DNA of 64,000 nt from the IMG/VR virus record IMGVR_UViG_2778261503_000006, one strand, 5' to 3'. Every line of letters begins with the position of its first letter. Within the stretch, counting starts at the first letter, position 1. Under the pieces are notes generated by a model. It saw nothing but the letters and a program-made list of their open reading frames with translations, had not been told where the DNA came from and did not search any database. Both the position numbers and the translations under genes were made by a program. Below, piece after piece: positions 3,297 to 63,672 of the stretch. The stretch comes from a virus. Lineage: Duplodnaviria > Heunggongvirae > Uroviricota > Caudoviricetes.

Positions 3297-5214
3297 CAAT
3301 CCTTTACGAATTAATATTCAGTCTACTTTTGCTGATACGATCCCCGGCTATGTGCCAAGTCGCTGGTCTTCAGAAGAATTAAGCGAAGATGACCTGATTT
3401 TTGAGGCGGCGACCTTAGAAGATATTGAGCTTGCCTATATGGGCAATGAAATTCTGGTTGTGTCTGACGAAGCTATGTTTGAGTCCATAACTACAACCAG
3501 AATTCGGTTAGCTCAAACAATGCGAGCTTTCGTCCGTGCGCTGAATCGTGGCCTGAATGGTACGAATATTATGGCAGGGACTGATGAAGCCGGGACCGAT
3601 GAAAATGGACGTAATTGTATTGGTGGTGCGATTATCGGTCGTGTACGTCGGGTAGCTAATATCCCTGTTTTGACCGCGCAGATACCGCTTACTGACGGGC
3701 AGAGTACAAGCATAATTTTCCACTCTCCAACAGCTGACGGGGCAAAAATAAAGAGTAACGACGAGCTTGTTGCATTTCAGTTTTTACTTAATAAGCGTAA
3801 CGTAACTCACGTTGTCGCCCCGATTGGTGGGAGAGATGTTTCTTTAAGCCAGGTATGCCAGGCGCTATCTAATTTGATTGAGCGTAACAGCGAAAAATTT
3901 AAGAAAGCAAAAGAGCGCCAGGACAAAATGAAGGCAGATATTGAGAGTTATCTCAATGAAGCAGATAAACTGGCAGAAGAACGGTCAATAATGATTGATC
4001 AGGTGGACGTTGCGCAACGTGGGCTGACTGAAAAGCGTGCTGCTCTTACGGAGATGCAAAAAAAACTTGATGCCCAGAAAGCCATCAACGAGGAATTACA
4101 AGAAAAACGCGATAAATTGTTGTCTGCTAAAGGTGAAAAAACGAAGGAACGAGCGTTTAGTGACCAGCTGCGACATGTAAAACATAATCTTGCCATTGAC
4201 GGAAAAACAGTGCTGGATAATGGCGCTGAAGTTAATTATATCACGTCCGGCAGTGACAATTTCGTTACGATAGTAGCACCTGAAGGTAAATTCAGTATTG
4301 ATGCCAGTGCTGTCAAAGGAGGCAGTTTGGCAGATGCTGCAACCAAATTACTTAAAGCCTACCGAGAGCATAACGCAGATAAATATAAAGTTGATGTGTT
4401 ACCAGGCCAGCAGGAAGACCCCGAACCACCACAGACAGACCCCGAGACGAACCCAGTATCACAACCAGAGAGCCAGGATGTAGGTAAATACCACTATGCA
4501 CTTCAATCTCGCCCGGCTGGTGTTGGTGCTGTGCCGGATGGAAATAAAGCCGTGCTTGATCGTCCTGACCAGGCTGATCAGTATTACGAATATGCTCGTC
4601 ACGGTATCATTACGTATGACCGTAAACTGACAGATGAAGAAGTCAGCCAGTACGAGTTGCTCTATCTTCCTGATGAAGATGAGCTGAAAGATTTTGCAGG
4701 CCAATTGGTTGTGTCCAGCATGTCGAAACATATTGATGGCTATGTAGACCTGTTTGGCAGTGACCTGAAAACATTCAAGGCGCAAGTGAAAATTCTTTTC
4801 CGCAAAGCGTTTCCAAACGTGGCGTATCCACTTGGTGATGGGGAGAACCTTTTCATTATGGACGTGTATAACGCCCTTCAAAATCATTCAAGCGAAGTAA
4901 AAACAGAGCATGTGGTTGAGCCGGAATCACAACCACAACCAGCACCAGAACAGGAGCCGGAGCCAGAAGAAGCTGGTGAATCAGCAAGTGAAGCTGATCA
5001 GGAGGCAGATAAAGCACTGGAGTACCTGAAATCCGTGCCGGAGCAGTTTACATCCCGCGATCTGACGGTCATCAGTGCTGAACTTGATCATGTGCAGGAA
5101 GCAGCAAACGCTCTAATCAGCGCAGGTCGATACGACGAGAACGAAGCCACTGTTGGTGCAGCAGTTGACTACCTGATCAACATTCTGGCTGAAATTCAGC
5201 AGGGAGGTGCTTAA
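3283..5214 (+). CDS. darA: DarA-like antirestriction/head-associated protein
   Basis: 643 aa from ATG 3283 with GGAGGA RBS; size and operon position match P1 DarA as I recall it; acidic Pro/Glu-rich linkers. Confidence 0.5.
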   Translation: MSMINNPLRINIQSTFADTIPGYVPSRWSSEELSEDDLIFEAATLEDIELAYMGNEILVVSDEAMFESITTTRIRLAQTMRAFVRALNRGLNGTNIMAGTDEAGTDENGRNCIGGAIIGRVRRVANIPVLTAQIPLTDGQSTSIIFHSPTADGAKIKSNDELVAFQFLLNKRNVTHVVAPIGGRDVSLSQVCQALSNLIERNSEKFKKAKERQDKMKADIESYLNEADKLAEERSIMIDQVDVAQRGLTEKRAALTEMQKKLDAQKAINEELQEKRDKLLSAKGEKTKERAFSDQLRHVKHNLAIDGKTVLDNGAEVNYITSGSDNFVTIVAPEGKFSIDASAVKGGSLADAATKLLKAYREHNADKYKVDVLPGQQEDPEPPQTDPETNPVSQPESQDVGKYHYALQSRPAGVGAVPDGNKAVLDRPDQADQYYEYARHGIITYDRKLTDEEVSQYELLYLPDEDELKDFAGQLVVSSMSKHIDGYVDLFGSDLKTFKAQVKILFRKAFPNVAYPLGDGENLFIMDVYNALQNHSSEVKTEHVVEPESQPQPAPEQEPEPEEAGESASEADQEADKALEYLKSVPEQFTSRDLTVISAELDHVQEAANALISAGRYDENEATVGAAVDYLINILAEIQQGGA

Positions 5215-5582
5215 TGACCATCTCTGTTTTAGACCGCCTGAAATTAGGTAAAGAGCTATCAGATCTAATGCAGGCGCAGAAAACGGCGCCAGTATTGCAA
5301 CGCGTCACCATTGGTAAGCAGATTGTTGATGTGATGCTGAAATTGGGCTTGGGGACTGCCGCGCAACCGGCAGCGGAACCGCAACAACAGACTGATCCTG
5401 TTGTAGATGAAGTTCCTAAGATAGTGACTGACTTCCTGGGCGGTGTGTTCACAAAGTCCACACAAATGGAATTTATTGATGCGCTGCGTGGGATCTCAAA
5501 CTATGTTGGCGAGTTCCTTACGTTGGAACAGGCAAAAGAGCAGACCATAAGCTGGGTGAAAGCCAACGGTTATGCAGGGTAA
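5214..5582 (+). CDS. small protein (DdrA-like by position)
   Basis: 122 aa, ATGA start/stop overlap with the DarA-like gene. Confidence 0.4.
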   Translation: MTISVLDRLKLGKELSDLMQAQKTAPVLQRVTIGKQIVDVMLKLGLGTAAQPAAEPQQQTDPVVDEVPKIVTDFLGGVFTKSTQMEFIDALRGISNYVGEFLTLEQAKEQTISWVKANGYAG

Positions 5583-5675
5583 TCAAAGGGGCTGAAATGC
5601 CCCTTTCACTTTCCTGTAAGTCCATAAATCACACACTTTTTACACTTCCTGCTTTCTATGTAAGGGGAGTGTATT

Positions 5676-8600
5676 TTGAACAAGTCAGTTACTTCCGCGC
5701 TATCCGAAGCAGCAGACATTAACAGTGTTATTGCGCTGGTTTCTTCATTAGAGAGGCGAGAAACACGCCAGGGGCGCAGTAGTTACGTAGTCACCAGTAA
5801 AGGGGCAGAGGTAAAGACGGCTTTTAAGGTCGTTGATGCCAGCAGTCTGATCATTTCGAACAACCTTGACGGTACGATTAATCCGGCCTTCCCGGAAGAA
5901 CTCCAGCCACGTGACCGTACACGGCTATCAAGCAAACTCCAGGTTAACCGTATTGCCTCCAATTTACGCCCGGCACAATTAACGGATTCCGGCATGAGCA
6001 GCCACGGAGCGCCGATAGTTGGTCCGGACAACGTTGTTGAATCCGGCAACGGAAGGAGCATGGGTATCTGGCGTGCCTATGAGCAAGGGCAGGCGGATGA
6101 ATATCGCCAGTACCTGATCGATCATGCAAAAGAGTTTGGTCTGAATCCTGACGACATTTCACAAATGTCTATGCCCGTATTGGTGCGAGAAAGACTCACA
6201 GATGTAGACCGCGCACAATTTGCCCGCGATTCAAACATCAGCGATCTGCAAGAGATGGCTGCAAGTGAAAAAGCGTATGCGGATGCGCAATTTCTCACTG
6301 AGAGCGTCATGGCGCTATTTAATCCTTCAGATGATGGAAATCTACTGGCGCGGTCCAATGATGCGTTTATTCGTGCGTTTTTGCGCGAAATAGGTGATAC
6401 GGCGACGGCAGGTTTGCTTACTGCCGATGGGCGTCCAACGAAACAACTTATCGACCGCATCCAGAATGCAATTTTTGCCAAAGCGTACAAGGATGAAAGG
6501 CTTGTTCGGCTGGTGGCGGAAGAGCCAGATCCGGAAATGCGTAACATTCTTACCGCATTAAATACGGCAGCCAGCGATTTTGCGCAAATGCAGTCGCTTT
6601 CAGGTGATGTTCACCATGACACGGTAACCGGACTGGTAGACGGTATAGAGCAATTGAATGGTCTGGATAAACAGGCTATTGCCGCGCTACAGGAAGCAAT
6701 TAACCTTGTTCGTGAAGCAAAAGATAACGGTCAGGCAGTAGAAGAGGTGATCGCACAGCGTGGATTGTTTGGAGATAGCACTCCGGAAGCAGAAGCGCTT
6801 GCTCTGTTTATTGTTGCCAACAACCGAAGCGCTAAGCGAATGGGGGCAGCTTTCAAGAAACTGGCGCAAAAAATTAACGATGAACTTATTCACCAGCAAC
6901 AAGCGTTAGGCGATATGTTCGGCGGCGGAGATGTCGATCTGCGTAGCATTTTATCTGCCGTTTCTGATGAAATTGAGGCTGAGTATGGCGAAGGTAAAGG
7001 GCTTAATTTCGCCATGTTTGAATCGGTTTCAGGAGAGGTCGAACCATACATTTCAAAGCTAATTGCTGATGCGACCAGCGTGGAGGACTTGATCCGAATC
7101 GTGAAGGTGTCAGAAAAAATTAAGGAGTCCGCAAAAAAAATAAAGCGCAATGTATTTTTGGAACTTGGTTTTTATATTCGCAATGTCACCGTTAATGAGA
7201 TTAAGGAGTGGGCTAAACGTTATGGATACAGCGACGCTGTGTTAACAACGATGTTATTGTCTTATCAACGCAGCAATTTTTATGCTAACGCACTGCGTGA
7301 CGCGATTGAAAAAGGAGATGAAGCTCCTTCGCTCGCAGATGAAAGAAATATTGATTGTGATATTGAAACGTTTTGCAACATATCAGAAGAAGGCGTGCCC
7401 GCTGAACAATTTATACGTGTTTTACATAATGCAGCAAAACATATTCCTGATGACTTTAGTATTGATGAATTGCGCAATGGTTGTCTTGTTTGGTTAGGTA
7501 ACTATTTAAAATCTCCAGCGTCTATTGCAGAGAAAACAGCTTTAAGATTTAGAAAGGAAATGAATAAAGCTGGAAGCGCAGAAGAGATGGTGTGCATAAT
7601 CCAAAATACTTTGAAGTTATTCAAAAAGAGCTTGCATAATATCGACGATATTATGGCGGCTGGTAGGAAAATAACAGCCAGTGTCGGAGTTAGCTCTGAA
7701 CTAACGGCAGAGGAGATCGCTGATGCGTATATTGAGACACTTGTCAGGCTTAAGGAGATAGTGGAATTAGCAGAGCATTCCTCATATTACGGAATCAAGG
7801 AGCGTGTTGACTTTACTATAGAACAAATCAATAAAGTTAGGTCAAATAAGGAAAAACTCACTGACTACCTTGCTGAGGTTTTGCACCAGAATGATCATGG
7901 GATTGGATATGATCTGAAAAAAATGCTTGTTTTTAATCTGGACATACCGGAAGACTTGCAAGCAGAACTATATGAAATAGCTTCATTAACACGTGGACAA
8001 AAAGCCTATCCTAATGCGCTTGAAAATGTAGTACATAAAAAAGTCAGAGCCGCATTTGACATGATTCTTGAATCGTCAAATGTGTCACATGACCAGTCTA
8101 AGGAATGGAGTCGTGGGATTGCTATTTCTGATGAAGCAGAGCAGTTAAGTGGTCACGATAATGAAACTTTCTCCCGTAAAGCATACAGTATTCGCGAGAC
8201 GATTGAAAAAGCCTATATTATTTCAGGAGGGACTTTATCTACATTAAAAAATATTAACCACAAGAACAATGTTCGTGCTTTTGCAAGTCGAAATGGGAAT
8301 ATAACAATTGATGCTAATAGTGATCACGAGCGTGTATTATGGCATGAAATAGGTCACCATATAGAACATTCAAATCCCCATCTATTGGAGAGGGCCAAAG
8401 CCTTCATTAAATCAAAAACTAACGGTAAAGTTTCTTATCATAATATTGGTAGCCGTGGCAGTGCTGAGTATTTGGTGCGAACCGACCTAAGTCATGGATA
8501 TATGTCTAAAATTTATATGGAAAATACGGTAAGTTCTGTCAGCGGCAGATTTATATCAAAGCCACCTGCATTAAGCAATTGCAGGGCGACTGAGATTTTT

Positions 8601-54087: not shown

Positions 54088-54413
54088 AACTCACCTGCAC
54101 ACCGTCAGGCCCAACGCAAATAAATGAAACATCCCGCTCTTGGTGTTTCAGTGAAATAGCTCATTTTTAGCTTGGAAGCAACTTGATTATGAGCTAAGCC
54201 TGACATACACTTCAGCGAGAAAATGATCAAGTTAAAGACACAAAAGCTCTGTTTTAACAGAGCTTTTGTGTCTTTAAAACATAGATATCATGCCATATAT
54301 AGTGCCAAAATTAGTTTTAGACACTATATATATTATAAAAGGTAAAAACCGCTTCTACTTTTAACATCCACAGAAAAAAGAAAGCGGTTATAGATAAGGG
54401 AAAAGGAGGGGTT

Positions 54414-54719
54414 ATGCTCTATGCGGTTCCTCAGCAAGCTTCTGATTCTTTGAAGTTAATCAAGACTGTACTTCAGCTTATAGCATCTCAACAAGAAGTG
54501 TCACAGCAGTTAAAGTTACGGGTTTATGAGGTGATCAGAGAAGCCTCAAACTTAAGTGTAGATAAAGGTGATCAATTACAGATTCCTTCTCACAGAGAGT
54601 CCATCTCGCTCGCGGTAGAGATACGCCACACTAAGGCGCTCGCCCAGGTGCTAACCAAAGTAACTAGCGAAGATATGTTAGAACCCGTAATGGCCCGGAA
54701 TGTATTAGAGTACATTTAA
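54414..54719 (+). CDS. small helical protein, first gene of AT-rich three-gene operon
   Basis: 101 aa; ATG 54414 with AAAAGGAGGGG RBS. Confidence 0.5.
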   Translation: MLYAVPQQASDSLKLIKTVLQLIASQQEVSQQLKLRVYEVIREASNLSVDKGDQLQIPSHRESISLAVEIRHTKALAQVLTKVTSEDMLEPVMARNVLEYI

Positions 54720-55792
54720 TGCTTGCATTTACACAACTTACATTAGTTCGAAATAAGCTAAGGGAGATATCAGAATCTCCCTATTTTTCTAAAGACATGC
54801 ATGAATATCTTGCTGTTCTACAAGAAGCGGTAGATAAGCTCTATGAAAACCATGTGAATGTTGCTGATAAAATAATTGCGGATTGTACTTTTTTTATCAC
54901 CGATGCAGTTAATTTTTTCACTGGCAGTACTACAAAGAAAATTCCCTACGAGATTGTTTATTGCTTAAATGATGCCTGTAAAAAATGGATAAGTGAAAAA
55001 ACACTTATAACCACAGCCCTATCTCCAGATATGCATGGGTTTTATTTTAAGTCTGTAAACAAGAATTTGTATTCTTTATTTGATGAAGTTTTAAATGTCA
55101 AATTCGAGGTCGAATTAATTCAGATTTCATTACCTGAAATGTACAGAAGACGACCATTATGCTCTATACCTTTATATCACGAATTGGGACATTTCGTTGA
55201 TATTAGCAAAGGTATTTCTGAGCTTGCCTGTCTTAACTATCGTTCCAAGGACAAAGGCACACTTCCAGGACCAGAATGGAGTAATCTACCTGATGTTATT
55301 TGGATAAATCATTGCAGAGAATATTTTGCAGATCTATTTAGTGCCCAATTTATTGGAAAAAGTGGGGTAGATTTCTTATACAAATTAGCTGGCTCTCATC
55401 CTGCAAGCTATACTCACCCATCCACAGAAGATAGAGTTAAAATTGTAAGCGACTTTTTGAACAAAGTGGAAAATCCAGTTGTTGGCATGTTCAATGCTGT
55501 GATATCAGCCTTACATAAGGGTGGGCAGATTATTTCTCCTTGTTTGACATTGCCGACACCTTTGCTTGATGTGAAATCAGCTTTTGATAATGTGCGTCCT
55601 TTTGTTATTCGCGACCACAATGAAATGCATGCTTTTATTAACAGCAGCTGGCAGTACTTATGCTCTGAATGGGAAAAACCTACGGGTATATGGTCTGGGT
55701 TGTCAAAAGAAGCCATAGAAAAAACTATAAATGATTTGGTTGAAAAATCGATTCGAAACGTAATGATTCTTGAAAAATGGAGTGCACAATGA
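54719..55792 (+). CDS. HExxH zinc-metallopeptidase-like protein
   Basis: 357 aa; HELGH at nt 55178-55192; AT-rich; translationally coupled to both neighbours. Confidence 0.6.
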   Translation: MLAFTQLTLVRNKLREISESPYFSKDMHEYLAVLQEAVDKLYENHVNVADKIIADCTFFITDAVNFFTGSTTKKIPYEIVYCLNDACKKWISEKTLITTALSPDMHGFYFKSVNKNLYSLFDEVLNVKFEVELIQISLPEMYRRRPLCSIPLYHELGHFVDISKGISELACLNYRSKDKGTLPGPEWSNLPDVIWINHCREYFADLFSAQFIGKSGVDFLYKLAGSHPASYTHPSTEDRVKIVSDFLNKVENPVVGMFNAVISALHKGGQIISPCLTLPTPLLDVKSAFDNVRPFVIRDHNEMHAFINSSWQYLCSEWEKPTGIWSGLSKEAIEKTINDLVEKSIRNVMILEKWSAQ

Positions 55793-56406
55793 ATCTCCTA
55801 AGCAAAGCTGAATTGCTGCAATATTATGAATCAGAAGAACCTGAGTCGTTGTTCATTGAACCTCTTCTAAATAAAAACCAAATTGGAAACTTCACCATAG
55901 ACCTTAGACTTGGTTACGATTTTTTAGTGTCTATTATGACAAGGAAGCCGTCAATAGAGTTAATTCCCTCAAAAAACAATGATACTCATCAACCAATCAG
56001 AACATTTTTCCAGGAAACAAGGAGAGATCTTGGGGATAGGTTCATTGTTTACCCGAATCAAGTGGTACTGGCAACAACATTAGAATATGTTTGTTTGCCA
56101 CCAGATTGCTACGCTGATGTATTGTCCAGAAGCAGCTATACAAGGCTTGGTCTTTCATTAAATACCATGATACAACCAGGGTACAGAGGCTGTATATCTT
56201 TAGAGTTATTTAATCATGGGAATAGCCCTGTAGAACTTATTGTTGGATCTCGCATATGTCAAATTCGTATATTCAAGAATGAAACTGTCGGTGAATACAT
56301 AAGTCATGAGTCTCACAGGAAATATTTCGGAAATGTGAGGCCAACCGTCTCAGCAGCAGAAAGTGATAATGAATTAAATATGCTGGAAAAGATCCGACAA
56401 AAATGA
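55777..56406 (+). CDS. dCTP deaminase / dUTPase-fold enzyme (Dcd-like); alternative start ATG 55789
   Basis: IDLRLG, SSYTRLGL, PGYRGCISLELFN, GSRICQIRIF blocks align with E. coli Dcd. Confidence 0.7.
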   Translation: MECTMNLLSKAELLQYYESEEPESLFIEPLLNKNQIGNFTIDLRLGYDFLVSIMTRKPSIELIPSKNNDTHQPIRTFFQETRRDLGDRFIVYPNQVVLATTLEYVCLPPDCYADVLSRSSYTRLGLSLNTMIQPGYRGCISLELFNHGNSPVELIVGSRICQIRIFKNETVGEYISHESHRKYFGNVRPTVSAAESDNELNMLEKIRQK

Positions 56407-56494
56407 AAACTTTAATGCTTTATATTATAAAAACATACAGCGACAACGCAGCCACCAAGATGTGTTGTCGCCATGTTCAAAGTGCTAACACAGT

Positions 56495-56887
56495 TTAAAA
56501 ATCACCTGCGCGCTGTTTTTCAAGCACAGATTTAACATTTGGCACTTTCCCTTTAAAAGAATGGAAAGTGCCACATTTTTCTGTTTTAACTTCGCGCAGA
56601 GCTTCGCCATCGGCGTTCTGCCATTGATGGGATAATGTCATATCACCGCGAGAAGGAACATCCAGCGAGTACAGCGTGTAAGTTCCCCCCATCTCCGCAT
56701 ACTCCTGGAACACATAGCTCATTACGTCAGATTCAGTTTTTCGGTGTACGTTATCAACCTTATTCCCATTCAGAAATATGGCATCTGGATAGATTTTTAT
56801 ATCAAACCGACCGCACTTAACTTGTAAATTTCCGGCGCTCGCGATCAAAGGGAAAGACGCCAGTAAAGCAATTGTCAATCTTTTCAA
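56495..56887 (-). CDS. secreted small protein with signal peptide
   Basis: 130 aa; MKRLTIALLASFPLIASA signal peptide. Confidence 0.5.
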   Translation of the reverse strand: MKRLTIALLASFPLIASAGNLQVKCGRFDIKIYPDAIFLNGNKVDNVHRKTESDVMSYVFQEYAEMGGTYTLYSLDVPSRGDMTLSHQWQNADGEALREVKTEKCGTFHSFKGKVPNVKSVLEKQRAGDF

Positions 56888-56907
56888 TTCTGCCTCCGCT
56901 GCGTAAC

Positions 56908-57531
56908 TTATTGCCCGTATTTTTTACACCATTGCTCTGCCATTTGTTTGGCTAAAGGCCCGGCTACTGCACTGTATTCTGCTGTTTTACTTTGCACACA
57001 TGAAGCAGATGGTTTTTTATTTCGCTGCTCGGTTAGTTTGCGCTCATAAGCCATCATGCTATCGAACCCGGCAATATCACTTTGGCGAAGCATTCCCTTT
57101 TTAACCAAAAATTGCTGCCCCTCGGGCACCAACGCAAGCATAAAAAGTGGTTGCAATAACTCACCTAATCCTTGCTGGCGATACACTTCGAATTGCTGCC
57201 ATCCCTGACTTAATCTGGAAAGAGTATCTTTGGTTGAATAACCTGTTTTTGTTATAGCTTTGTCCGTCAGATATGCTGTATATGCAAAAACGCAAAAGTC
57301 AGTTTTACCAATAAACTGAGTTCCAACAGGCCGTAATGGAATGCCCTCCCTCTTGCAAAAGTCCATAATGGCCGCTTGTGAATGATCCCCACCAGCATTA
57401 TTCATAACCTGCTGCCCTGCCCTGAATTGTGCAGGTAACGCAGTTGCATTGGCAGTATTAGCAGATACGCATCCCAACATAGCCGCGAGCGCGGCCCCTA
57501 AAACCCTTAACTTCACTACACCATCCTTCAT
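56908..57531 (-). CDS. secreted/periplasmic protein with signal peptide
   Basis: 207 aa; LRVLGAALAAMLGCVSANTANA N-terminus. Confidence 0.5.
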   Translation of the reverse strand: MKDGVVKLRVLGAALAAMLGCVSANTANATALPAQFRAGQQVMNNAGGDHSQAAIMDFCKREGIPLRPVGTQFIGKTDFCVFAYTAYLTDKAITKTGYSTKDTLSRLSQGWQQFEVYRQQGLGELLQPLFMLALVPEGQQFLVKKGMLRQSDIAGFDSMMAYERKLTEQRNKKPSASCVQSKTAEYSAVAGPLAKQMAEQWCKKYGQ

Positions 57532-57799
57532 GTAAACAAAATGAAGTTTTATGTTATAAAAACAATTAACTACATCAACATGATTTAGGCCAAATTTCGG
57601 TCAAAAAATAAAATCCACAAAAAGTGGTTGACACTATTTTGGAAATCACAAACTGCACATAATCCATCGCGCTAACGGCTCCCGTTGAAGGTTCTTTTGA
57701 CGATTAACTTTCAGCCGAAGCGCGGTAGGGAGTCATAACGCCAAAGCAGGCCGCCATGTGCGGCCTTTTTTTGTATCCGTCATCCGTGGAGGAAGGAAA

Positions 57800-58781: not shown

Positions 58782-59111
58782 ATGGGCTATAGCAGACTCG
58801 ACGACAGGTACATTGAAGACGATATTTTTCGTGCGCTGTTTCACCAGGAAATGATTAAGCGGGTATCGGAGTATCACTCTGATAATTTCCAGTACACGAT
58901 AAAGATTGATGAAGTATATCGTTCAGACCTTGCAGCCTACCGGGCGTATGGCAATGCAGATTTGCGCTGGGTATTCCGGGTGCTGGTGGGCCATGAGTCA
59001 GAAATGGAAGAAATGCCCGCCGGGACCACGTTAACTCTTCCTGATGTGGCATGGCTGAGGAACAAGATCCGTGATTACGCGAGCGCGGAACCGGAGATAG
59101 AAAATGCCTGA
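58782..59111 (+). CDS. hypothetical protein
   Basis: 109-aa ORF. Confidence 0.4.
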   Translation: MGYSRLDDRYIEDDIFRALFHQEMIKRVSEYHSDNFQYTIKIDEVYRSDLAAYRAYGNADLRWVFRVLVGHESEMEEMPAGTTLTLPDVAWLRNKIRDYASAEPEIENA

Positions 59112-60297
59112 TTTCCTGAAAAACCAGGACGGGCGCTATATCACTGACGGCCTGTCCTCTAAGGACTTCACGCGTTTATTCGACCTTATCAGGAAAGAAC
59201 AAACCCGTAAGCGCCGACAAGCTCACCGGACGCTGACGCCAGGTAGACTGAGGAACAAATCCGCCGAAGATATTCTCAAGTTAGGGAAGAAAAAAGGCGG
59301 CACGTTCTTCACGCGAGACGACCTGAAAGGTTTCGAAAAGCTACGGAGTAAAACACGCGAAAAATATGACAGCAAGACGGCTGGCATCACATACGCCCAG
59401 CTGGTGGCATCCAGCCAGGCAATCGATATTAAGCGTGCAAATAACGCCGTGGATGACGGATCTGGTATCAAAAGAGCTACACCCGTATCTCTTCGCCACA
59501 ACGTGATTAATATCCGCGTAGAAGCATCGGATATATCCGTCCACCAGCACCATATCGTCCGGATACGCTTTGAAGAATGGGATCAGATGGTTGATGACAT
59601 CGCAGAAGACGATAAATCAGCTCTGAAAATCACTAAATCACTGTGCGCCGGGCGAGTGTCTTTCGATTGTGACTGTGGTCGTCATCAATACTGGTATCGT
59701 TACATCGCTACTGCGGGTAACTTTGCCCTGGCCCCGCCAAAAGAATACGCCTATCCAAAAGTTCGTAACCCTAAGCTACAAGGCGTCGCCTGTAAACACG
59801 TGATCCACTCAATGACGCGGTTACAGTCCGCAAGTTGGCAAATGAGTATTGCTCGTGCACTACAAAAGGCTGCAACGCAAATTGCATTTGGTGACGATCG
59901 CCGACGTACAACCAAACACTTCTCAAAAGAAGACGAGAAGGAGTTTAATCGCAATCGTAGCAGTAAAACGAACGTTGAAGCCGCCAAACGCGAATGGAGA
60001 CTCTATCAGAAGCGCCAGGCAGCTTTAAGTACAAAACTGGCAAAGGACAACGGCAAGATCGACAAACTACGTGACCAATTGACCAAGGCCAGAAAGTTGT
60101 CAGATGCACAGAAAAAACGGGCGGCAGCAAAAGAAGCGGCCTTGCAACGTGAGAAACAGAAAAACAAGGAGCTTCAGCAACGCCTTGCCGATCAGTTCGC
60201 ACTGAAGAAGCAGGCGTTCATTGATGCGCTTGTCATGGCTGGAACACCACCAGCACAAGCTGAAAAAATGTTCATGGAGTATGTAAAAAAAGCATAA
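59104..60297 (+). CDS. SWIM-type zinc-finger protein with K/R-rich coiled-coil tail
   Basis: 397 aa; FDCDCGRHQYW...(x30)...CKHVIH fits CxCxnCxH. Confidence 0.5.
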   Translation: MPDFLKNQDGRYITDGLSSKDFTRLFDLIRKEQTRKRRQAHRTLTPGRLRNKSAEDILKLGKKKGGTFFTRDDLKGFEKLRSKTREKYDSKTAGITYAQLVASSQAIDIKRANNAVDDGSGIKRATPVSLRHNVINIRVEASDISVHQHHIVRIRFEEWDQMVDDIAEDDKSALKITKSLCAGRVSFDCDCGRHQYWYRYIATAGNFALAPPKEYAYPKVRNPKLQGVACKHVIHSMTRLQSASWQMSIARALQKAATQIAFGDDRRRTTKHFSKEDEKEFNRNRSSKTNVEAAKREWRLYQKRQAALSTKLAKDNGKIDKLRDQLTKARKLSDAQKKRAAAKEAALQREKQKNKELQQRLADQFALKKQAFIDALVMAGTPPAQAEKMFMEYVKKA

Positions 60298-60330
60298 ACC
60301 ACACATAGCCTAGCTGCCTAGGCTAGGCTT

Positions 60331-61059
60331 TCATCTTTTTGAAAAATCAATTTCCGTTTTATCAAATAAATTTGAAATATCAGCAACCAATTTATTAAAA
60401 TCATGATCGCCATTATAAAGCGAAGTCTTCTTTATTGCCATTACAAAATCATATAACTTTTCTGGGGAGTCAATACCAACCCCTCTACTTTTAAAAAGCT
60501 CAATGATAACTCCAACATCATCATATAATAATTTTATTGCCGCCATAATCTCTTTTTGCTGCCTAAGCAATCTCTCAAGTTCATTTTTATTTTCATCCAT
60601 AATTCTTTTGTTGAATTGTGTATCATTAATACTTTTTATTATTTCAGTCTCTTTTATTTGCAACGCCTTTCTTTTATTTTGATCCATGTCGGCATCCAAA
60701 TACCTTATCTCTGTATATATTTTACTTGTTAGCTTTGATACGCAAAGAGTGACAATCGGAGCTGCAATTGATGCAATAATTCCAAAAATAAATGGCAAGC
60801 AAAAATGATAAAACCAAGGAGACAAAACGCCTTCATAAACTAGAGGAATCTTACCTCCAACAAATGTTACAGATAAAGTATATAGGATATCATCCTTTGA
60901 CTTCATCAATATTAGTATATCTTTCCAATTAATAATTAGAAAAGAAATGAATATATATGCAAACACTTTATTAAAAAGCTTGTCTTTTATGGCATCTCCA
61001 AAAGATACTTTGATTAGATCATTTTCAGTCAATTTTTCTGTTGATGAATCTGTATTCAT
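60331..61059 (-). CDS. AT-rich membrane protein, candidate abortive-infection/exclusion protein
   Basis: 242 aa; two hydrophobic helices (VFAYIFISFLIINW; FCLPFIFGIIASIAAPIVTLCV) then coiled-coil tail; very low GC. Confidence 0.5.
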   Translation of the reverse strand: MNTDSSTEKLTENDLIKVSFGDAIKDKLFNKVFAYIFISFLIINWKDILILMKSKDDILYTLSVTFVGGKIPLVYEGVLSPWFYHFCLPFIFGIIASIAAPIVTLCVSKLTSKIYTEIRYLDADMDQNKRKALQIKETEIIKSINDTQFNKRIMDENKNELERLLRQQKEIMAAIKLLYDDVGVIIELFKSRGVGIDSPEKLYDFVMAIKKTSLYNGDHDFNKLVADISNLFDKTEIDFSKR

Positions 61060-61198
61060 ATAAACTACCGTGATTTCTAATATCTATTTTATGAAAATTC
61101 ATTTCCGGTTCGTTATCGAACATCGGTTCGACCGCACGCAGTGCGGCCTCATAATCTTGTTCTGTACGGATAGATTTAATGTTCATTAATTACAAAGG

Positions 61199-61225
61199 AA
61201 AGCCCACTTGCTAAGTGGGCTTTTT
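61199..61225. terminator. hairpin plus T-run between minus-strand genes
   Basis: aaagcccacttgctaagtgggcttt followed by tttt. Confidence 0.6.
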
Positions 61226-61242
61226 GTATGTGTTTTACTATA

Positions 61243-61581
61243 TCAGGCTGCTTTTTTATTCAGGTTCCGCTGAGAAATAAATTTTTCAGCAGTATTGATA
61301 CGACTTAACTCTTCCTGAACGCGCATATCATTTTCGACTTCCCACAGGTCTACTGCGGTCTGAAGATTAATCCAAAAATCTACAGAAGTATCGAATGCTT
61401 TTGCCAGGCGATATGCCATATCCATCGTTAGCTTACGATTATTATTAACAAGAGCACTTACGGTGTTACGATGAACATGAAGTATTTCTGCTAACTCGTT
61501 GATCTTCAGCTCTAACGGCTCCAGGTATTCGTACAGCAGGATATCACCTACGGTCGTCGGTTTTCTGGTTGCCTGTTTCAT
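61243..61581 (-). CDS. higA: HigA-family antitoxin (HTH)
   Basis: 112 aa; ILLYEYLEPLELKINELAEILHVHRNTVSALVNN HTH. Confidence 0.8.
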   Translation of the reverse strand: MKQATRKPTTVGDILLYEYLEPLELKINELAEILHVHRNTVSALVNNNRKLTMDMAYRLAKAFDTSVDFWINLQTAVDLWEVENDMRVQEELSRINTAEKFISQRNLNKKAA

Positions 61582-61651
61582 TTTTTGCCCTTACTAGCGT
61601 GCGTATTAAGTGGACTCTGGTCAGAACCCGGTCCGTAACCGGGTATCTGTT

Positions 61652-61954
61652 TTAGTATTTGTGAGGGTCGAGATACAAGTCCTCGGCCTTTCCGTTAACC
61701 CACCTAAAAATTAACCTATATTGCTTATTCACCCTTACTGATGAATAGCCATTTAGCTTCCCTGACAGTTCCTCATACCGATTACCTGGTGGTGATCTTA
61801 AATCCTTACAGGTAGTTGCGGCATTGATAATGTCCAACTTCCGTGACAATGTCATATGAATATCAGGAGGTATCTTTCTATGTGGTGTTGAAAATTCAAA
61901 AAAATCATCAAGCCACGCATCCCTGAAATCCTTTATGTTAATTTTTTTGGTCAT
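61652..61954 (-). CDS. higB: HigB-family toxin (RelE/ParE superfamily)
   Basis: 100 aa; GNRYEELSGKLNGYSSVRVNKQYRLIFRWVNGKAEDLYLDPHKY matches HigB C-terminal pattern; toxin-first order. Confidence 0.8.
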   Translation of the reverse strand: MTKKINIKDFRDAWLDDFFEFSTPHRKIPPDIHMTLSRKLDIINAATTCKDLRSPPGNRYEELSGKLNGYSSVRVNKQYRLIFRWVNGKAEDLYLDPHKY

Positions 61955-62116
61955 TAGTCATTTGATCCTCCGTGATGATTACCGAATGCCATAACTATAG
62001 CGCACCGTTGCACTGTGCGCAAGTGCATTTTATGAATTCCCCCTCCTTCATCCAAAATCACAATCTCCAGAAAATCTTCCTTTCGATACCTGACAGATCG
62101 ACCTTTGAGGATGCTT

Positions 62117-62908
62117 ATGGGCCGTTTTGACGAATGGTTTGCTGACGATGCAAACCTGGCAAGTAAGGAGTCAGAACATGACAGCACGCAGAGAGAAACG
62201 CCAGCGCCGATTGAAGCGAATGCAGGAGGCGCGCCGGAACATGGCAATACCGGTTCGGATTCATTCAGCATTCTGGAAGAGCAACCCGCCGCCAAAGCTG
62301 ATAGCCATGATAATTTTGCTGATAGCAACGGTGGCCTTACTCCGGATGCTGGCGAATCAGATATAGCCATACTTCCATCTTCCCTGGCTGGCAGAGAACC
62401 GACTCCACAGTTAAAAGCACGCTATAACGGGCATAAAGCCTTTAACGACCAAATCCGCGCAGACTGGATGCTGATTATTGAATCCAGCCCAGACGCGTTT
62501 CAGGCTCTCTTATATCGACCAGATGTTGGCACATATGGGGTAGTCAGCGACGAAACAGGAGAAGAGTCATTCACCGAACTGGATAACAACCAACGCGAAC
62601 TGACTTACCAGGAACCTGAAATCGTTTATGTGCTGGATAACCCTGACGGGCGTGACTCTTTCCATGCGATTGACGCAGACGGTGAGCAGGATGGCTTAAC
62701 CGATGATGTTCTGATTCTGCGTATTGCAGCAAATAACGTCCCCGTCGGCTCAATTCTTGAATGGAATGAAGAGATGGTAAACGGCGTAGCGCGCCGCTGG
62801 TGGTACGTGCACCGTATTTTTAGCTACGGCACACAGCATGTTGGTTCGCTTTACTACTGCATACCTGCCAGGAATTTTGATACGACTCAAAACGGAGTGA
62901 TCGAATGA
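62117..62908 (+). CDS. hypothetical acidic protein (possible virion protein)
   Basis: 263 aa from ATG 62117 with GAGG RBS. Confidence 0.45.
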   Translation: MGRFDEWFADDANLASKESEHDSTQRETPAPIEANAGGAPEHGNTGSDSFSILEEQPAAKADSHDNFADSNGGLTPDAGESDIAILPSSLAGREPTPQLKARYNGHKAFNDQIRADWMLIIESSPDAFQALLYRPDVGTYGVVSDETGEESFTELDNNQRELTYQEPEIVYVLDNPDGRDSFHAIDADGEQDGLTDDVLILRIAANNVPVGSILEWNEEMVNGVARRWWYVHRIFSYGTQHVGSLYYCIPARNFDTTQNGVIE

Positions 62909-63672
62909 CTTCAAATAAAACCCTCCTGGCGCGAACAGGTGAATGGCAAACCTCACGCACAGGAAAATTCCAGACCACGGGCTTTGAAAACGTGGATAAC
63001 GCGTTTGCGACGCTAATCAGCAACATTTTTTCTGATATCTTACTGGTGGCCCCCGCGCCGGAAGAAAAACGCTTTGCGTCATTCCTGAATCGTCCACCAG
63101 CAGAGCGTGTCTATGTGGCCCGTTTCGACAATGCGATCGAGTTTCTTAAAGCAGTTCGTCGCGCAAATGCCGGGCAAGGGAGAAAACCTGAAAACCAGAA
63201 CATTAACCGGGATGCTCTCCCCCTGGTCAATATCTCACGCAATATGGATATCAATTATATCAACGATGATCAGCAGATTGACCGCAAAAAAGTAGCCAGT
63301 TTTTGCGAACCGGATACCGGAATGCCTTTAGCAGAACTGGAATACACCCAGGCCATTCTGACGTATGACGTTACGTTAATGGCAACTGATAAAGCGACCA
63401 TGAGTCTGATGTGTAATTCGCTGGGCGCACGGCTTCGCCTGATGACAGGTACACAATTTGAAGCAACCACTCACCTTGTTCGTGTCCCGGTCCCGCTGAT
63501 TTGCTCGATACAGGATGCCAAAGAAGTCGGCTTTACGGATGTTTCAGCACCAATTGGAGAAGAGCGTATTTATGCCACACAAGCGCCGATAAGTGTGATT
63601 GCAGACGTGATCACAGCATGGGAGTTGGACGCAAAACGTATTATTACCGAAACCTCGATATCTATGGGGTGA
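62905..63672 (+). CDS. hypothetical protein (possible virion protein)
   Basis: 255-aa ORF with overlapping start. Confidence 0.45.
   Translation: MTSNKTLLARTGEWQTSRTGKFQTTGFENVDNAFATLISNIFSDILLVAPAPEEKRFASFLNRPPAERVYVARFDNAIEFLKAVRRANAGQGRKPENQNINRDALPLVNISRNMDINYINDDQQIDRKKVASFCEPDTGMPLAELEYTQAILTYDVTLMATDKATMSLMCNSLGARLRLMTGTQFEATTHLVRVPVPLICSIQDAKEVGFTDVSAPIGEERIYATQAPISVIADVITAWELDAKRIITETSISMG

What the first reader, a model, noticed from the sequence alone, without database searches (positions are those of the whole stretch)
60331..61059. Strongly AT-rich membrane protein bracketed by terminators next to higBA: candidate abortive-infection/exclusion gene
Seen: a 242-aa minus-strand ORF with the lowest GC in the window, two predicted transmembrane helices and a charged coiled-coil tail, flanked by hairpins (60306-60328; 61199-61225) as a stand-alone unit immediately beside higBA. 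Inference: single-gene Abi-like or superinfection-exclusion cargo; no family recognised.
Basis: partly seen in the sequence, partly recalled or inferred. Interest (0 to 1): 0.55.

Follow-up and report, generated by a model that had tools for sequence, protein, structure and literature searches.

The report
Uncharacterised prophage membrane protein beside higBA
The AT-rich gene is real, intact and under selection, and belongs to an unstudied family of two-pass membrane proteins that temperate phages and plasmids of enteric bacteria carry in their swap-prone cargo slots, often just behind a HigBA toxin-antitoxin pair; it is a reasonable but untested anti-phage candidate.

Summary
The window is a near-copy (99.3%) of the P1-like phage-plasmid D6. 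The ORF at 60331-61059(-) is D6 orf73, annotated hypothetical.

- It has the lowest GC of the window (29.2% against 47%).
- It has two hydrophobic helices followed by a roughly 110-residue continuous helix.
- Hairpins lie at both stated positions.

No Pfam, NCBIfam, PADLOC, PDB or fold match exists; only PHROG 8191, of unknown function.

I define a family ("X") of at least 68 sequence clusters in Enterobacterales. It is always AT-rich and always on mobile elements:
- the gene 7|25 slot of D6-like plasmids, which is empty in P1;
- the orf30 (S|V) and ogr|D slots of P2-like prophages;
- a Mu-like prophage, plasmids and an island.

X is not purely stand-alone. It is repeatedly the third gene behind toxin-first, HTH-antitoxin TA pairs of three families. 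Here, a 295-bp deletion has reduced a second HigA gene (D6 orf72) between higA and X to a stub.

X alleles differ by 42-58% in amino-acid sequence inside 97-99% identical flanks. The membrane hairpin is conserved and dN/dS is 0.1-0.2.

A defence or exclusion role is plausible but unproven, and Abi versus exclusion cannot be resolved in silico.

The parts
60331..61059 (-). Gene X (the D6 orf73 homologue): 242 aa, a member of PHROG 8191 and of the family defined here.
   Evidence: (E 7.5e-115).
60970..61059 (-). Residues 1-30: N-terminal tail ending in the conserved I-K-D-K-L-F-N motif. Inferred to be cytoplasmic.
   Evidence: Alignments A2 and A3. Positive-inside count: 7 K/R flanking the N and C sides against 3 in the loop.
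60901..60969 (-). Residues 31-53: transmembrane helix 1, with the invariant Asn44 (N-W-[QEK]) in mid-helix, followed by K-S-K-x-D-I.
   Evidence: This is the most conserved segment: 83% mean pairwise identity among slot alleles.
60814..60900 (-). Residues 54-82: variable loop with a short helix and a beta-hairpin. Inferred to be periplasmic.
60736..60813 (-). Residues 83-108: transmembrane helix 2, with invariant Pro89 and Pro101 and near-invariant Gly93.
60487..60735 (-). Residues 109-191: charged helix continuous with TM2 (coiled-coil-like). This is the most variable part.
   Evidence: pLDDT above 90. (31% mean identity). (dN/dS up to 0.84 in one recent pair).
60334..60486 (-). Residues 192-242: small helical C-terminal domain with a semi-conserved Y-x3-G-x-x-I-[ED]-x3-D-[LF]-x2-F motif.
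60306..60329 (.). Bidirectional hairpin between the convergent genes 25 and X.
61025..61186 (-). Stub of D6 orf72 (a COG5499-type HigA, 119 aa in D6). The first 30 codons (61097-61186) are native. The frame then runs on across the deletion junction and overlaps the X start codon.
61096..61097 (.). Junction of a 295-bp deletion relative to D6. It removed the orf72 HTH domain, the orf72-X hairpin (GCGGTCTGGATGACCGC) and part of the spacer. The same junction occurs in Salmonella plasmid pSa1423-160k.
61197..61225 (.). Hairpin immediately after higA, 12 nt before the orf72 start codon. It is the terminator of the swapped-in PF05015 higBA cassette, with a weak T-tract on the minus strand.
61243..61581 (-). 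higA (HTH_3 antitoxin).
61652..61954 (-). higB (PF05015 HigB-like RelE-fold toxin).
59104..60297 (+). P1 gene 25 homologue (tail protein), the left edge of the slot.
62105..62908 (+). P1 gene 7 homologue (tail protein), the right edge of the slot.

Best explanation
X is a functional accessory ('moron'-type) inner-membrane protein carried by temperate contractile-tail phages, phage-plasmids and plasmids of Enterobacterales. Its most likely job is to protect the lysogen against other phages at the membrane.

Proposed mechanism (inferred, not shown):
- The conserved, polar-studded two-helix hairpin (Asn44, Pro89, Gly93, Pro101) is the working part. It oligomerises through the long cytoplasmic helix.
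- The fast-evolving cytoplasmic coiled-coil and C-terminal domain sets trigger or target specificity.
- On infection the protein perturbs or permeabilises the inner membrane, giving an abortive-infection-type outcome.

In many elements X is transcribed as the attenuated third gene of an autorepressed HigB-HigA operon, which would keep a potentially harmful membrane protein low until infection. In this window the native promoter and the cognate HigB have been replaced by another higBA cassette and the adjacent HigA is deleted, so X would be expressed only by read-through.

What is shown: gene integrity, purifying selection, family, contexts and cassette history. What is inferred: topology, oligomerisation, anti-phage role and mode of action.
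For: Function is retained:
- All allele classes keep an open frame of about 240 codons in 29-40% GC DNA.
- dN/dS is 0.08-0.20 in unsaturated pairs.

The gene is cargo, not core:
- It is absent from P1, P7, SJ46, RCS47 and JK004.
- It is AT-rich against its flanks in 15 of 15 contexts.
- It lies antisense to late operons in the D6 7|25 slot, the P2 orf30 slot (S|V) and the P2 ogr|D slot, and beside the umuDC, Tlde1 and gtrABC cargo of a Mu-like prophage.
- Its neighbours include an AAA_21/AAA_15 ATPase with a C5 methylase, a KAP NTPase and SocA_Panacea.

The allele pattern is typical of specificity genes:
- Alleles share 42-58% amino-acid identity, with dS of at least 1, inside flanks that are 97-99.7% identical.
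- The membrane hairpin is 83% conserved against 31% for the coiled coil, and one recent pair shows C-terminal dN/dS of 0.84 against 0.10.

TA linkage:
- Tight HigB(PF09907)-HigA-X operons occur in three deeply diverged lineages and two different slots or replicons.
- An operator-like palindrome lies in the promoter upstream of higB, and a hairpin lies between higA and X.

Conserved polar and helix-breaking residues inside the TM helices argue for more than a simple anchor.
Against: - There is no experimental datum.
- There is no similarity to any Abi, Sie or defence HMM and no informative fold match.
- No enzymatic or known sensor domain is present.
- No sigma-70-like site lies on the minus strand between 61060 and 61440, so expression in this window is uncertain.
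- Guilt by association in phage hotspots is weak evidence.
- A variable coiled coil may simply be weakly constrained.
- X is IS-disrupted or frameshifted in some elements.
- TA modules may sit upstream only because the slot tolerates insertions.
Confidence: 0.3

Rival explanations
1. X is a superinfection-exclusion protein. It is made constitutively in the lysogen, sits in the inner membrane and blocks genome entry by incoming phages, possibly contractile-tail relatives. It would do so by interfering with the ejection channel or tape-measure insertion, without killing the cell.
For: - X is a moron inside tail or baseplate gene clusters of P1-like, P2-like and Mu-like myoviruses.
- From my own knowledge, this placement recalls the HK97 gp15 exclusion moron.
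- The loop between the TM helices is variable.
- Allele swapping occurs inside conserved flanks.
- X persists although the neighbouring HigA decays, so X does not need an antitoxin.
Against: - Most of the protein, and most of its variation, lies in a domain of about 130 residues inferred to be cytoplasmic. An entry blocker does not obviously need that.
- No PHROG annotated as superinfection exclusion matches.
- Topology is not verified.
Confidence: 0.25
2. X is an integral third component of a HigBA-based tripartite system. It could be a membrane effector, or a platform whose level or activity is gated by the TA pair, analogous in layout to PD-lambda-2 or the toxin-antitoxin-chaperone system HigBAC. 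It would have little activity alone. In this window it would be an orphaned leftover.
For: - The order toxin, then HTH antitoxin, then X, with gaps of -4 to 91 nt, recurs with PF09907/COG5499 pairs that have co-diverged to 26-54% identity.
- The same order recurs with PF05015/HTH_3 and PF05016/HTH_3 pairs.
- The triad moved as a unit to another slot (L024) and into Klebsiella IncFIB plasmids (L013).
Against: - X occurs alone in the same 7|25 slot of more distant P1-like elements and in P2-like and Mu-like prophages and an island.
- X stays intact and under purifying selection where orf72 has been truncated twice independently.
- X alleles are exchanged independently of the TA: the TA is 97-99% identical while X is 57% identical between L013 and L014.
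Confidence: 0.12
3. X has no defence role. It could serve the element itself (for example lysis timing, membrane remodelling or lysogenic conversion of envelope properties), or it could be selfish or neutral cargo. In this particular window it may be silent.
For: - No defence homology was found.
- There is no predicted promoter of its own, and the native promoter has been lost.
- The P2 orf30 slot also holds non-essential genes of unknown role.
- X is disrupted in some elements.
Against: - Purifying selection and long-term retention in the slot hold across P1-like lineages whose tail proteins have diverged to 49-73% identity.
- Antisense placement argues against a late lytic role.
- The allele-replacement pattern is unusual for housekeeping phage functions.
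Confidence: 0.25

Closest known systems
HK97 gp15, P22 SieA/SieB and T4 Imm (prophage or phage inner-membrane superinfection-exclusion proteins; comparison from my own knowledge)
   Same: - A small inner-membrane protein.
- Encoded as a compositionally odd, terminator-bounded insertion inside the tail or late genes of a temperate phage.
- Absent from close relatives.
   Different: - No sequence or profile similarity.
- X has a cytoplasmic coiled-coil region of about 130 residues that those proteins lack.
- No exclusion phenotype has been shown.
Two-TM membrane effectors of abortive systems (lambda RexB; 2TM effectors of retrons, CBASS and Pycsar; comparison from my own knowledge)
   Same: An N-terminal TM hairpin as the conserved part, with a variable cytoplasmic part. 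This is compatible with trigger-dependent membrane damage.
   Different: - No partner sensor or enzyme gene is consistently adjacent.
- No nucleotide-binding domain is present.
- No PADLOC hit.
PD-lambda-2 (Vassallo et al. 2022, PMC9519451)
   Same: - A three-gene layout that starts with HigB-like and HigA-like genes.
- D6 orf72, the gene just upstream of X, matches PD-Lambda-2_B positions 1-119 with E 4e-43.
   Different: - PD-lambda-2B carries a C-terminal peptidase and is the toxic part, and PD-lambda-2C is P4-antitoxin-like.
- orf72 has only the HTH part.
- X matches no PD-lambda-2 model.
HigBAC and CmdTAC toxin-antitoxin-chaperone defence systems (bioRxiv 10.1101/2024.02.24.581848; mentioned in 10.1101/2024.10.15.618418)
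   Same: [quoted passage not shown]
   Different: [quoted passage not shown] X is a membrane protein with no SecB similarity, and it survives loss of the antitoxin.
PHROG 8191, and weakly PHROGs 13369 and 4780
   Same: X is a full-length member of PHROG 8191 (E 7.5e-115). It is a distant relative of PHROG 13369 (E 1e-5) and PHROG 4780 (E 1.4e-3).
   Different: All three PHROGs are annotated 'unknown function'.

Membership tests
Known Abi and other defence families (PADLOC-DB v2.0.0, 5027 models) | Profile match to a defence-system protein. | tested here: not met
   No hit for X at E up to 1. NCBIfam returned only sub-threshold coiled-coil noise.
Superinfection-exclusion families (Pfam SieB and others; PHROGs annotated as exclusion) | Profile match. 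| tested here: not met
   No Pfam hit above noise for 9 family members. The only PHROG hits are to families of unknown function.
Moron (Hendrix-type autonomous insertion in a late operon) | Present in some relatives and absent from others at the same junction. | tested here: met
   Genes 25 and 7 are adjacent in P1 (3-nt gap). D6-like elements carry the cassette there.
Moron | Atypical base composition. | tested here: met
   29.2% GC against 47%. The same contrast holds in 15 of 15 loci.
Moron | A terminator of its own. | tested here: met
   Hairpin at 60306-60329 directly after the stop codon.
Moron | A promoter of its own. | tested here: inconclusive
   No sigma-70-like match on the minus strand between 61060 and 61440. 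In intact triads the promoter lies upstream of higB.
PD-lambda-2 | HigB-like A, HigA-HTH-plus-peptidase B, and P4-antitoxin-like C. | tested here: not met
   orf72 matches only positions 1-119 of the 402-position B model. X matches no model.
Toxin-antitoxin-chaperone (HigBAC type) | The third gene is a SecB-like chaperone. | tested here: not met
   No SecB or other Pfam match. X is a predicted membrane protein.
Two-TM tetrameric cation channels (KcsA/NaK fold) | Significant fold match and a conserved selectivity-filter motif. | tested here: not met
   Best Foldseek E-value 3.6, probability at most 0.15. The T-F-V-G-G stretch of the E. coli alleles is not conserved in the family.
PHROG 8191 | Full-length profile match. 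| tested here: met
   E 7.5e-115 over positions 1-242 of 242.
Type II HigBA module (the neighbours, not X) | A RelE-fold HigB toxin gene followed by an HTH antitoxin gene. | tested here: met
   PF05015 E 9e-35 and HTH_3 E 7e-11.

The most novel reading that the evidence does not exclude
X defines a new membrane-based anti-phage family of temperate myoviruses and their plasmid relatives. It would work either alone or as the gated effector of a previously undescribed 'HigB-HigA-X' tripartite system. In that system, autorepression by the TA pair and an intra-operon attenuator would hold a pore-forming or entry-sensing membrane protein in check until infection, and swappable cytoplasmic coiled-coil alleles would set phage specificity.
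Probability: 0.15. Interest if true: 0.7.

Novelty: new variant of a known kind. Interest (0 to 1): 0.45.

Why it matters
If X is an anti-phage or exclusion factor, four things follow:
- It would add a compact, enzyme-free membrane family to the defence repertoire of clinically common D6-like phage-plasmids of E. coli and Salmonella, and of P2-like prophages of Klebsiella.
- It would give a function to the P2 'orf30' slot and to the D6 7|25 slot.
- It would offer a natural allele series, with a conserved hairpin and a variable tail, for mapping specificity.
- The repeated coupling to three different HigBA-type modules would be a testable case of TA modules acting as expression gates for a downstream effector.

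If X is not a defence gene, the result is still a clean description of a decaying composite cassette.

Tried and rejected
Searches that found nothing useful:
- Pfam on X and on 8 relatives returned only coiled-coil noise (TniB, FlaC, TraS and others, all below cut-off).
- Pfam on 10 longer relatives showed no informative domain fusion.
- NCBIfam returned noise only.
- PADLOC returned nothing.
- A PDB profile search returned coiled-coil noise.
- The genome-contig scan with A4 found no relative. The alignment A3 was too diverse for locus searches.
- Promoter scans of stand-alone relatives were uninformative.
- Accession numbers and signature motifs of X were absent from the searchable literature. 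They were also absent from the held supplements of the DefensePredictor, Vassallo 2022 and Rousset 2022 papers.

Ideas considered and rejected:
- The K+-channel-like idea (TM, short helix, 'TFVGG', TM, C-terminal helix) was rejected. The motif is not conserved and the fold match is insignificant.
- P2 Orf30 is not a homologue of X.
- Cronobacter phage JK004 has a 103-aa plus 139-aa gene pair upstream of gene 26. I did not test the 213-aa gene that follows it, but X queries did not match the JK004 record.

Full report
WHAT THE WINDOW IS

Window 59000-63000 aligns over its full length, at 99.3% identity, to Escherichia phage D6 (MF356679), a P1-like plasmid prophage. The D6 annotation places the region between homologues of P1 tail genes 26/25 (58782-60297, + strand) and 7/24 (62105-63672, + strand). 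Between them, on the minus strand, D6 carries four genes:
- orf70, a RelE-family toxin;
- orf71, HigA;
- orf72, a second 'HigA family' protein of 119 aa;
- orf73, a hypothetical protein of 242 aa.

The finding is orf73. I call its product X.

THE OBSERVATION

The ORF is present at 60331-61059(-).
- Its GC content is 29.2% (GC3 23%). This is the minimum over all 729-nt windows of the 64 kb, whose mean is 47.0%.
- In DNA of this composition, a 242-codon stop-free frame has a chance of about 1e-10.
- Hydropathy gives two segments, residues 32-52 and 83-110.
- AlphaFold2 on a 30-sequence alignment (mean pLDDT 79, pTM 0.38) gives helices 31-53 and 58-67, a small hairpin at 71-79, one uninterrupted helix at 81-191 (pLDDT above 90 over about 100-170) and a small helical end at 199-234.
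- The tail from residue 109 to 242 has 24 K/R and 24 D/E.
- Counting K/R, there are 7 next to the N- and C-terminal sides of the hairpin and 3 in the loop. This favours an N-in/C-in topology. That is an inference, not a measurement.

One point needs correcting. The upstream hairpin (61197-61225) does not abut X. A 53-codon ORF (61025-61186) lies between them and overlaps the X start codon.

THE CASSETTE HAS A HISTORY

Aligning the window with D6 shows a clean 295-bp deletion, with its junction at 61096/61097. The deletion removes three things:
- the C-terminal HTH two-thirds of orf72;
- the hairpin that follows orf72 (GCGGTCTGGATGACCGC plus a T-tract);
- part of the spacer before X.

The 53-codon ORF is the first 30 codons of orf72 running on out of frame. 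Intact orf72 matches the HTH part (positions 1-119 of 402) of PADLOC PD-Lambda-2_B (E 4e-43) and PHROG 1373. The same deletion junction is present in the error-rich Salmonella plasmid pSa1423-160k. The five closest plasmids keep orf72 intact.

Relatives show what the locus looked like earlier.
- In some E. coli D6-like plasmids (L004, L005, L044, L045) the slot holds a tight operon: HigB (PF09907, 100 aa), then orf72-type HigA (119 aa), then X. The gaps are 3 nt and 14-60 nt.
- Upstream of that higB lies a sigma-70-like promoter (TTTACA, 17 nt, TACTCT). Its spacer contains the perfect palindrome GTCCCATATTGGGAC, which is operator-like.
- The hairpin between higA and X looks like an attenuator.
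- In D6, this window and most other plasmids, the PF09907 higB and that promoter have been replaced, right up to the orf72 start codon, by a different module. This module is PF05015 higB plus HTH_3 higA plus its own terminator hairpin, which ends 12 nt before the orf72 ATG.
- orf72 was thus orphaned. It has been truncated at least twice independently: to 53 codons here and to 66 codons in the commonest allele class (L003; PHROG 10398).
- X stays intact throughout.
- No sigma-70-like site is found on the minus strand between 61060 and 61440. In this window X can therefore only be expressed by read-through of a hairpin with a poor minus-strand T-tract, or from a cryptic promoter. This is an inference.

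X IS A FAMILY

A word-indexed search found only 17 clusters, all from E. coli. An exhaustive profile search of 1.84 billion representatives found 68 at E of 1e-3 or better, and 26 at 1e-10 or better. Nearly all are 200-270 aa and match end to end. The sources name Escherichia, Salmonella, Enterobacter, Klebsiella, Citrobacter, Kluyvera, Pseudocitrobacter, Rahnella and Pantoea. Every source name is 'hypothetical' or 'coiled-coil domain-containing'.

The 30-sequence alignment shows:
- invariant Asn44, Pro89 and Pro101;
- near-invariant Ser39, Ser54 and Gly93;
- the signature D-[KR]-L-x-N ... S-[FL]-x3-N-W-[QEK]-x-I-[LI]-x-[IL]-x-K-S-K-x-D-I-x2-T-L.

PLSDB holds 157 plasmids with a tblastn match. 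Of these, 147 are non-mobilizable, and most are about 90-kb phage-plasmids. Among sequenced phages only D6 has X. No Pfam, NCBIfam, PADLOC, PDB-sequence or structural match exists. X does belong to PHROG 8191, of unknown function.

WHERE X SITS

(i) The gene 7|gene 25 slot of D6-like elements.
- This includes lineages whose tail proteins have diverged to 68-83% identity (Enterobacter; L014, L025, L046).
- It also includes lineages diverged to 49-73% (L028, L029), where X stands alone with only 134 bp upstream.
- P1, P7, SJ46, RCS47 and JK004 have genes 25 and 7 adjacent.

(ii) A different slot of a P1-related Pseudocitrobacter element, present as HigB-HigA-X.

(iii) Klebsiella IncFIB plasmids (55 records), as HigB-HigA-X flanked by IS elements. 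There X is split by IS903B.

(iv) P2-like prophages of Klebsiella and Rahnella, between gpS and gpV and antisense. This is exactly the inter-operon gap that holds the non-essential orf30 in P2. P2 Orf30 itself is unrelated to X.

(v) A P2-like prophage, between ogr and gpD.

(vi) A Pantoea Mu-like prophage, after the tail-fibre genes, a Tlde1-like gene and umuDC, and before AlpA, Bro-N and gtrABC.

(vii) An Enterobacter plasmid next to a KAP NTPase.

(viii) A viral contig, after an AAA_21/AAA_15 ATPase and a C5 methylase.

(ix) A Pantoea chromosomal island, beside an integrase and an IS3 element.

In all 15 loci measured, X is 29-40% GC against 37.5-57% for the rest of the locus.

RELATION TO TA MODULES

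X follows toxin-first, HTH-antitoxin pairs of three families:
- PF09907/COG5499-type;
- PF05015/HTH_3;
- PF05016 (ParE_toxin)/HTH_3.

The PF09907 triads have diverged in all three genes. HigB is 26% identical between L004 and L014 and 54% between L014 and L024. HigA is 28% and 53%. X is 33% and 28%. The linkage is therefore old.

Three facts show that X has a function of its own:
- X also occurs alone.
- X survives decay of orf72.
- X is exchanged independently of the TA. L013 and L014 share a 97-99% identical TA but only 57% identical X.

SELECTION AND ALLELE REPLACEMENT
- Across D6-like loci the flanks and the first 90 nt of orf72 are 97-99.7% identical. X is only 71-73% identical at the nucleotide level, or not alignable at all. 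The break points lie at the orf72/X boundary and at the gene 25 stop codon.
- Between allele classes dS is at least 1, so these are old alleles moved in by recombination.
- Unsaturated pairs give dN/dS of 0.08-0.20. One pair gives 0.10 for the membrane part and 0.84 for the C-terminal part.
- Mean pairwise identity among slot alleles is 83% for TM1 plus the KSK motif, 64% for TM2, 49% for the loop, 31% for the coiled coil and 41% for the end domain.

INTERPRETATION

The following are shown:
- X is a real, selected, horizontally mobile accessory membrane protein.
- It occupies swap-prone cargo slots of three unrelated temperate myovirus types and of plasmids.
- It is frequently wired behind a HigBA-type operon.

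The following are inferred:
- The conserved TM hairpin, with mid-membrane Asn and Pro/Gly residues, is the active part.
- The long helix mediates oligomerisation.
- The variable cytoplasmic region provides specificity.

My estimates for the function are:
- about 0.3 for an abortive-type membrane effector, which is my preferred reading;
- about 0.25 for superinfection exclusion (an entry block);
- about 0.12 for an obligate third component of a HigBA system;
- about 0.25 for a non-defence or silent role.

The sequence data cannot separate the first two. The large variable cytoplasmic part and the TA coupling tilt me slightly towards the first. Persistence of X without any cognate antitoxin tilts towards the second.

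COMPARISON WITH KNOWN SYSTEMS
- X resembles exclusion morons such as HK97 gp15 in genomic placement, and two-TM Abi effectors in architecture. Both comparisons come from my own knowledge. X is a member of neither by any test available here.
- PD-lambda-2 and HigBAC share only the gene order HigB, HigA, third gene.
- I found no mention of the family, its accession numbers or its motifs in the searchable literature or in three defence-screen supplements.

VERDICT

Tools add four things: the identity of the gene (D6 orf73), a family definition, its distribution, and the decayed tripartite origin of the cassette. The function remains untested. The finding is a moderately interesting, well-defined experimental lead rather than a discovery.

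Noticed in passing
window 61096/61097 (and 61025-61186): A 295-bp deletion relative to phage D6 truncates the second HigA-type gene (orf72) and removes the hairpin before X. The same junction occurs in Salmonella plasmid pSa1423-160k. The commonest allele class has an independent truncation of orf72, to 66 aa.
   Followed up: yes
window 54100-57600: A second AT-rich island (GC 0.36-0.40) is absent from D6. It holds a + strand operon of 101 aa, 357 aa and a 209-aa dCTP-deaminase-like protein (Pfam DCD, E 1e-30), plus two minus-strand ORFs of 130 aa and 207 aa. None of the five has a PADLOC hit. The island sits in the sim/mat slot, which also varies among D6-like plasmids.
   Followed up: partly
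L005:4190-4275 (E. coli D6-like contig): Upstream of the PF09907 higB lies a sigma-70-like promoter whose spacer contains the perfect palindrome GTCCCATATTGGGAC, a likely HigA operator. This promoter-operator has been lost in D6 and in the window.
   Followed up: partly
L013 (Klebsiella pneumoniae pQDE2-C, MK773537) 4171-6765: A HigB-HigA-X triad has been transferred to IncFIB plasmids (55 Klebsiella records). X is split by an IS903B insertion, and both halves are still detectable.
   Followed up: partly
gene 7|gene 25 slot of P1-like elements (L004, L005, L014, L025, L028, L029, D6): Three different toxin-first TA families (PF09907, PF05015, PF05016) alternate upstream of X in the same slot, and some elements have none. 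The slot therefore acts as a TA-swapping site as well.
   Followed up: partly
L016:7833-8576 and L020:5638-6402 (P2-like S|V slot): Further unknown cargo genes share the P2 'orf30' slot with X. One is a 247-aa protein with a weak HNH_5 hit. The other is a 254-aa protein listed as DUF6650 in the precomputed table but with no hit in my scan. Neither resembles P2 Orf30.
   Followed up: no
L042:3712-4634 and L045:4986-5728: X is split into two ORFs in two viral contigs, either by a frameshift or by a sequencing error. This suggests occasional pseudogenisation.
   Followed up: no
L049 (Cronobacter phage JK004) 28-755: A 103-aa plus 139-aa overlapping gene pair, of the same sizes as the HigB/HigA pairs seen next to X, lies upstream of the gene 26 region in a P1-like phage that lacks the 7|25 cassette.
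   Followed up: no
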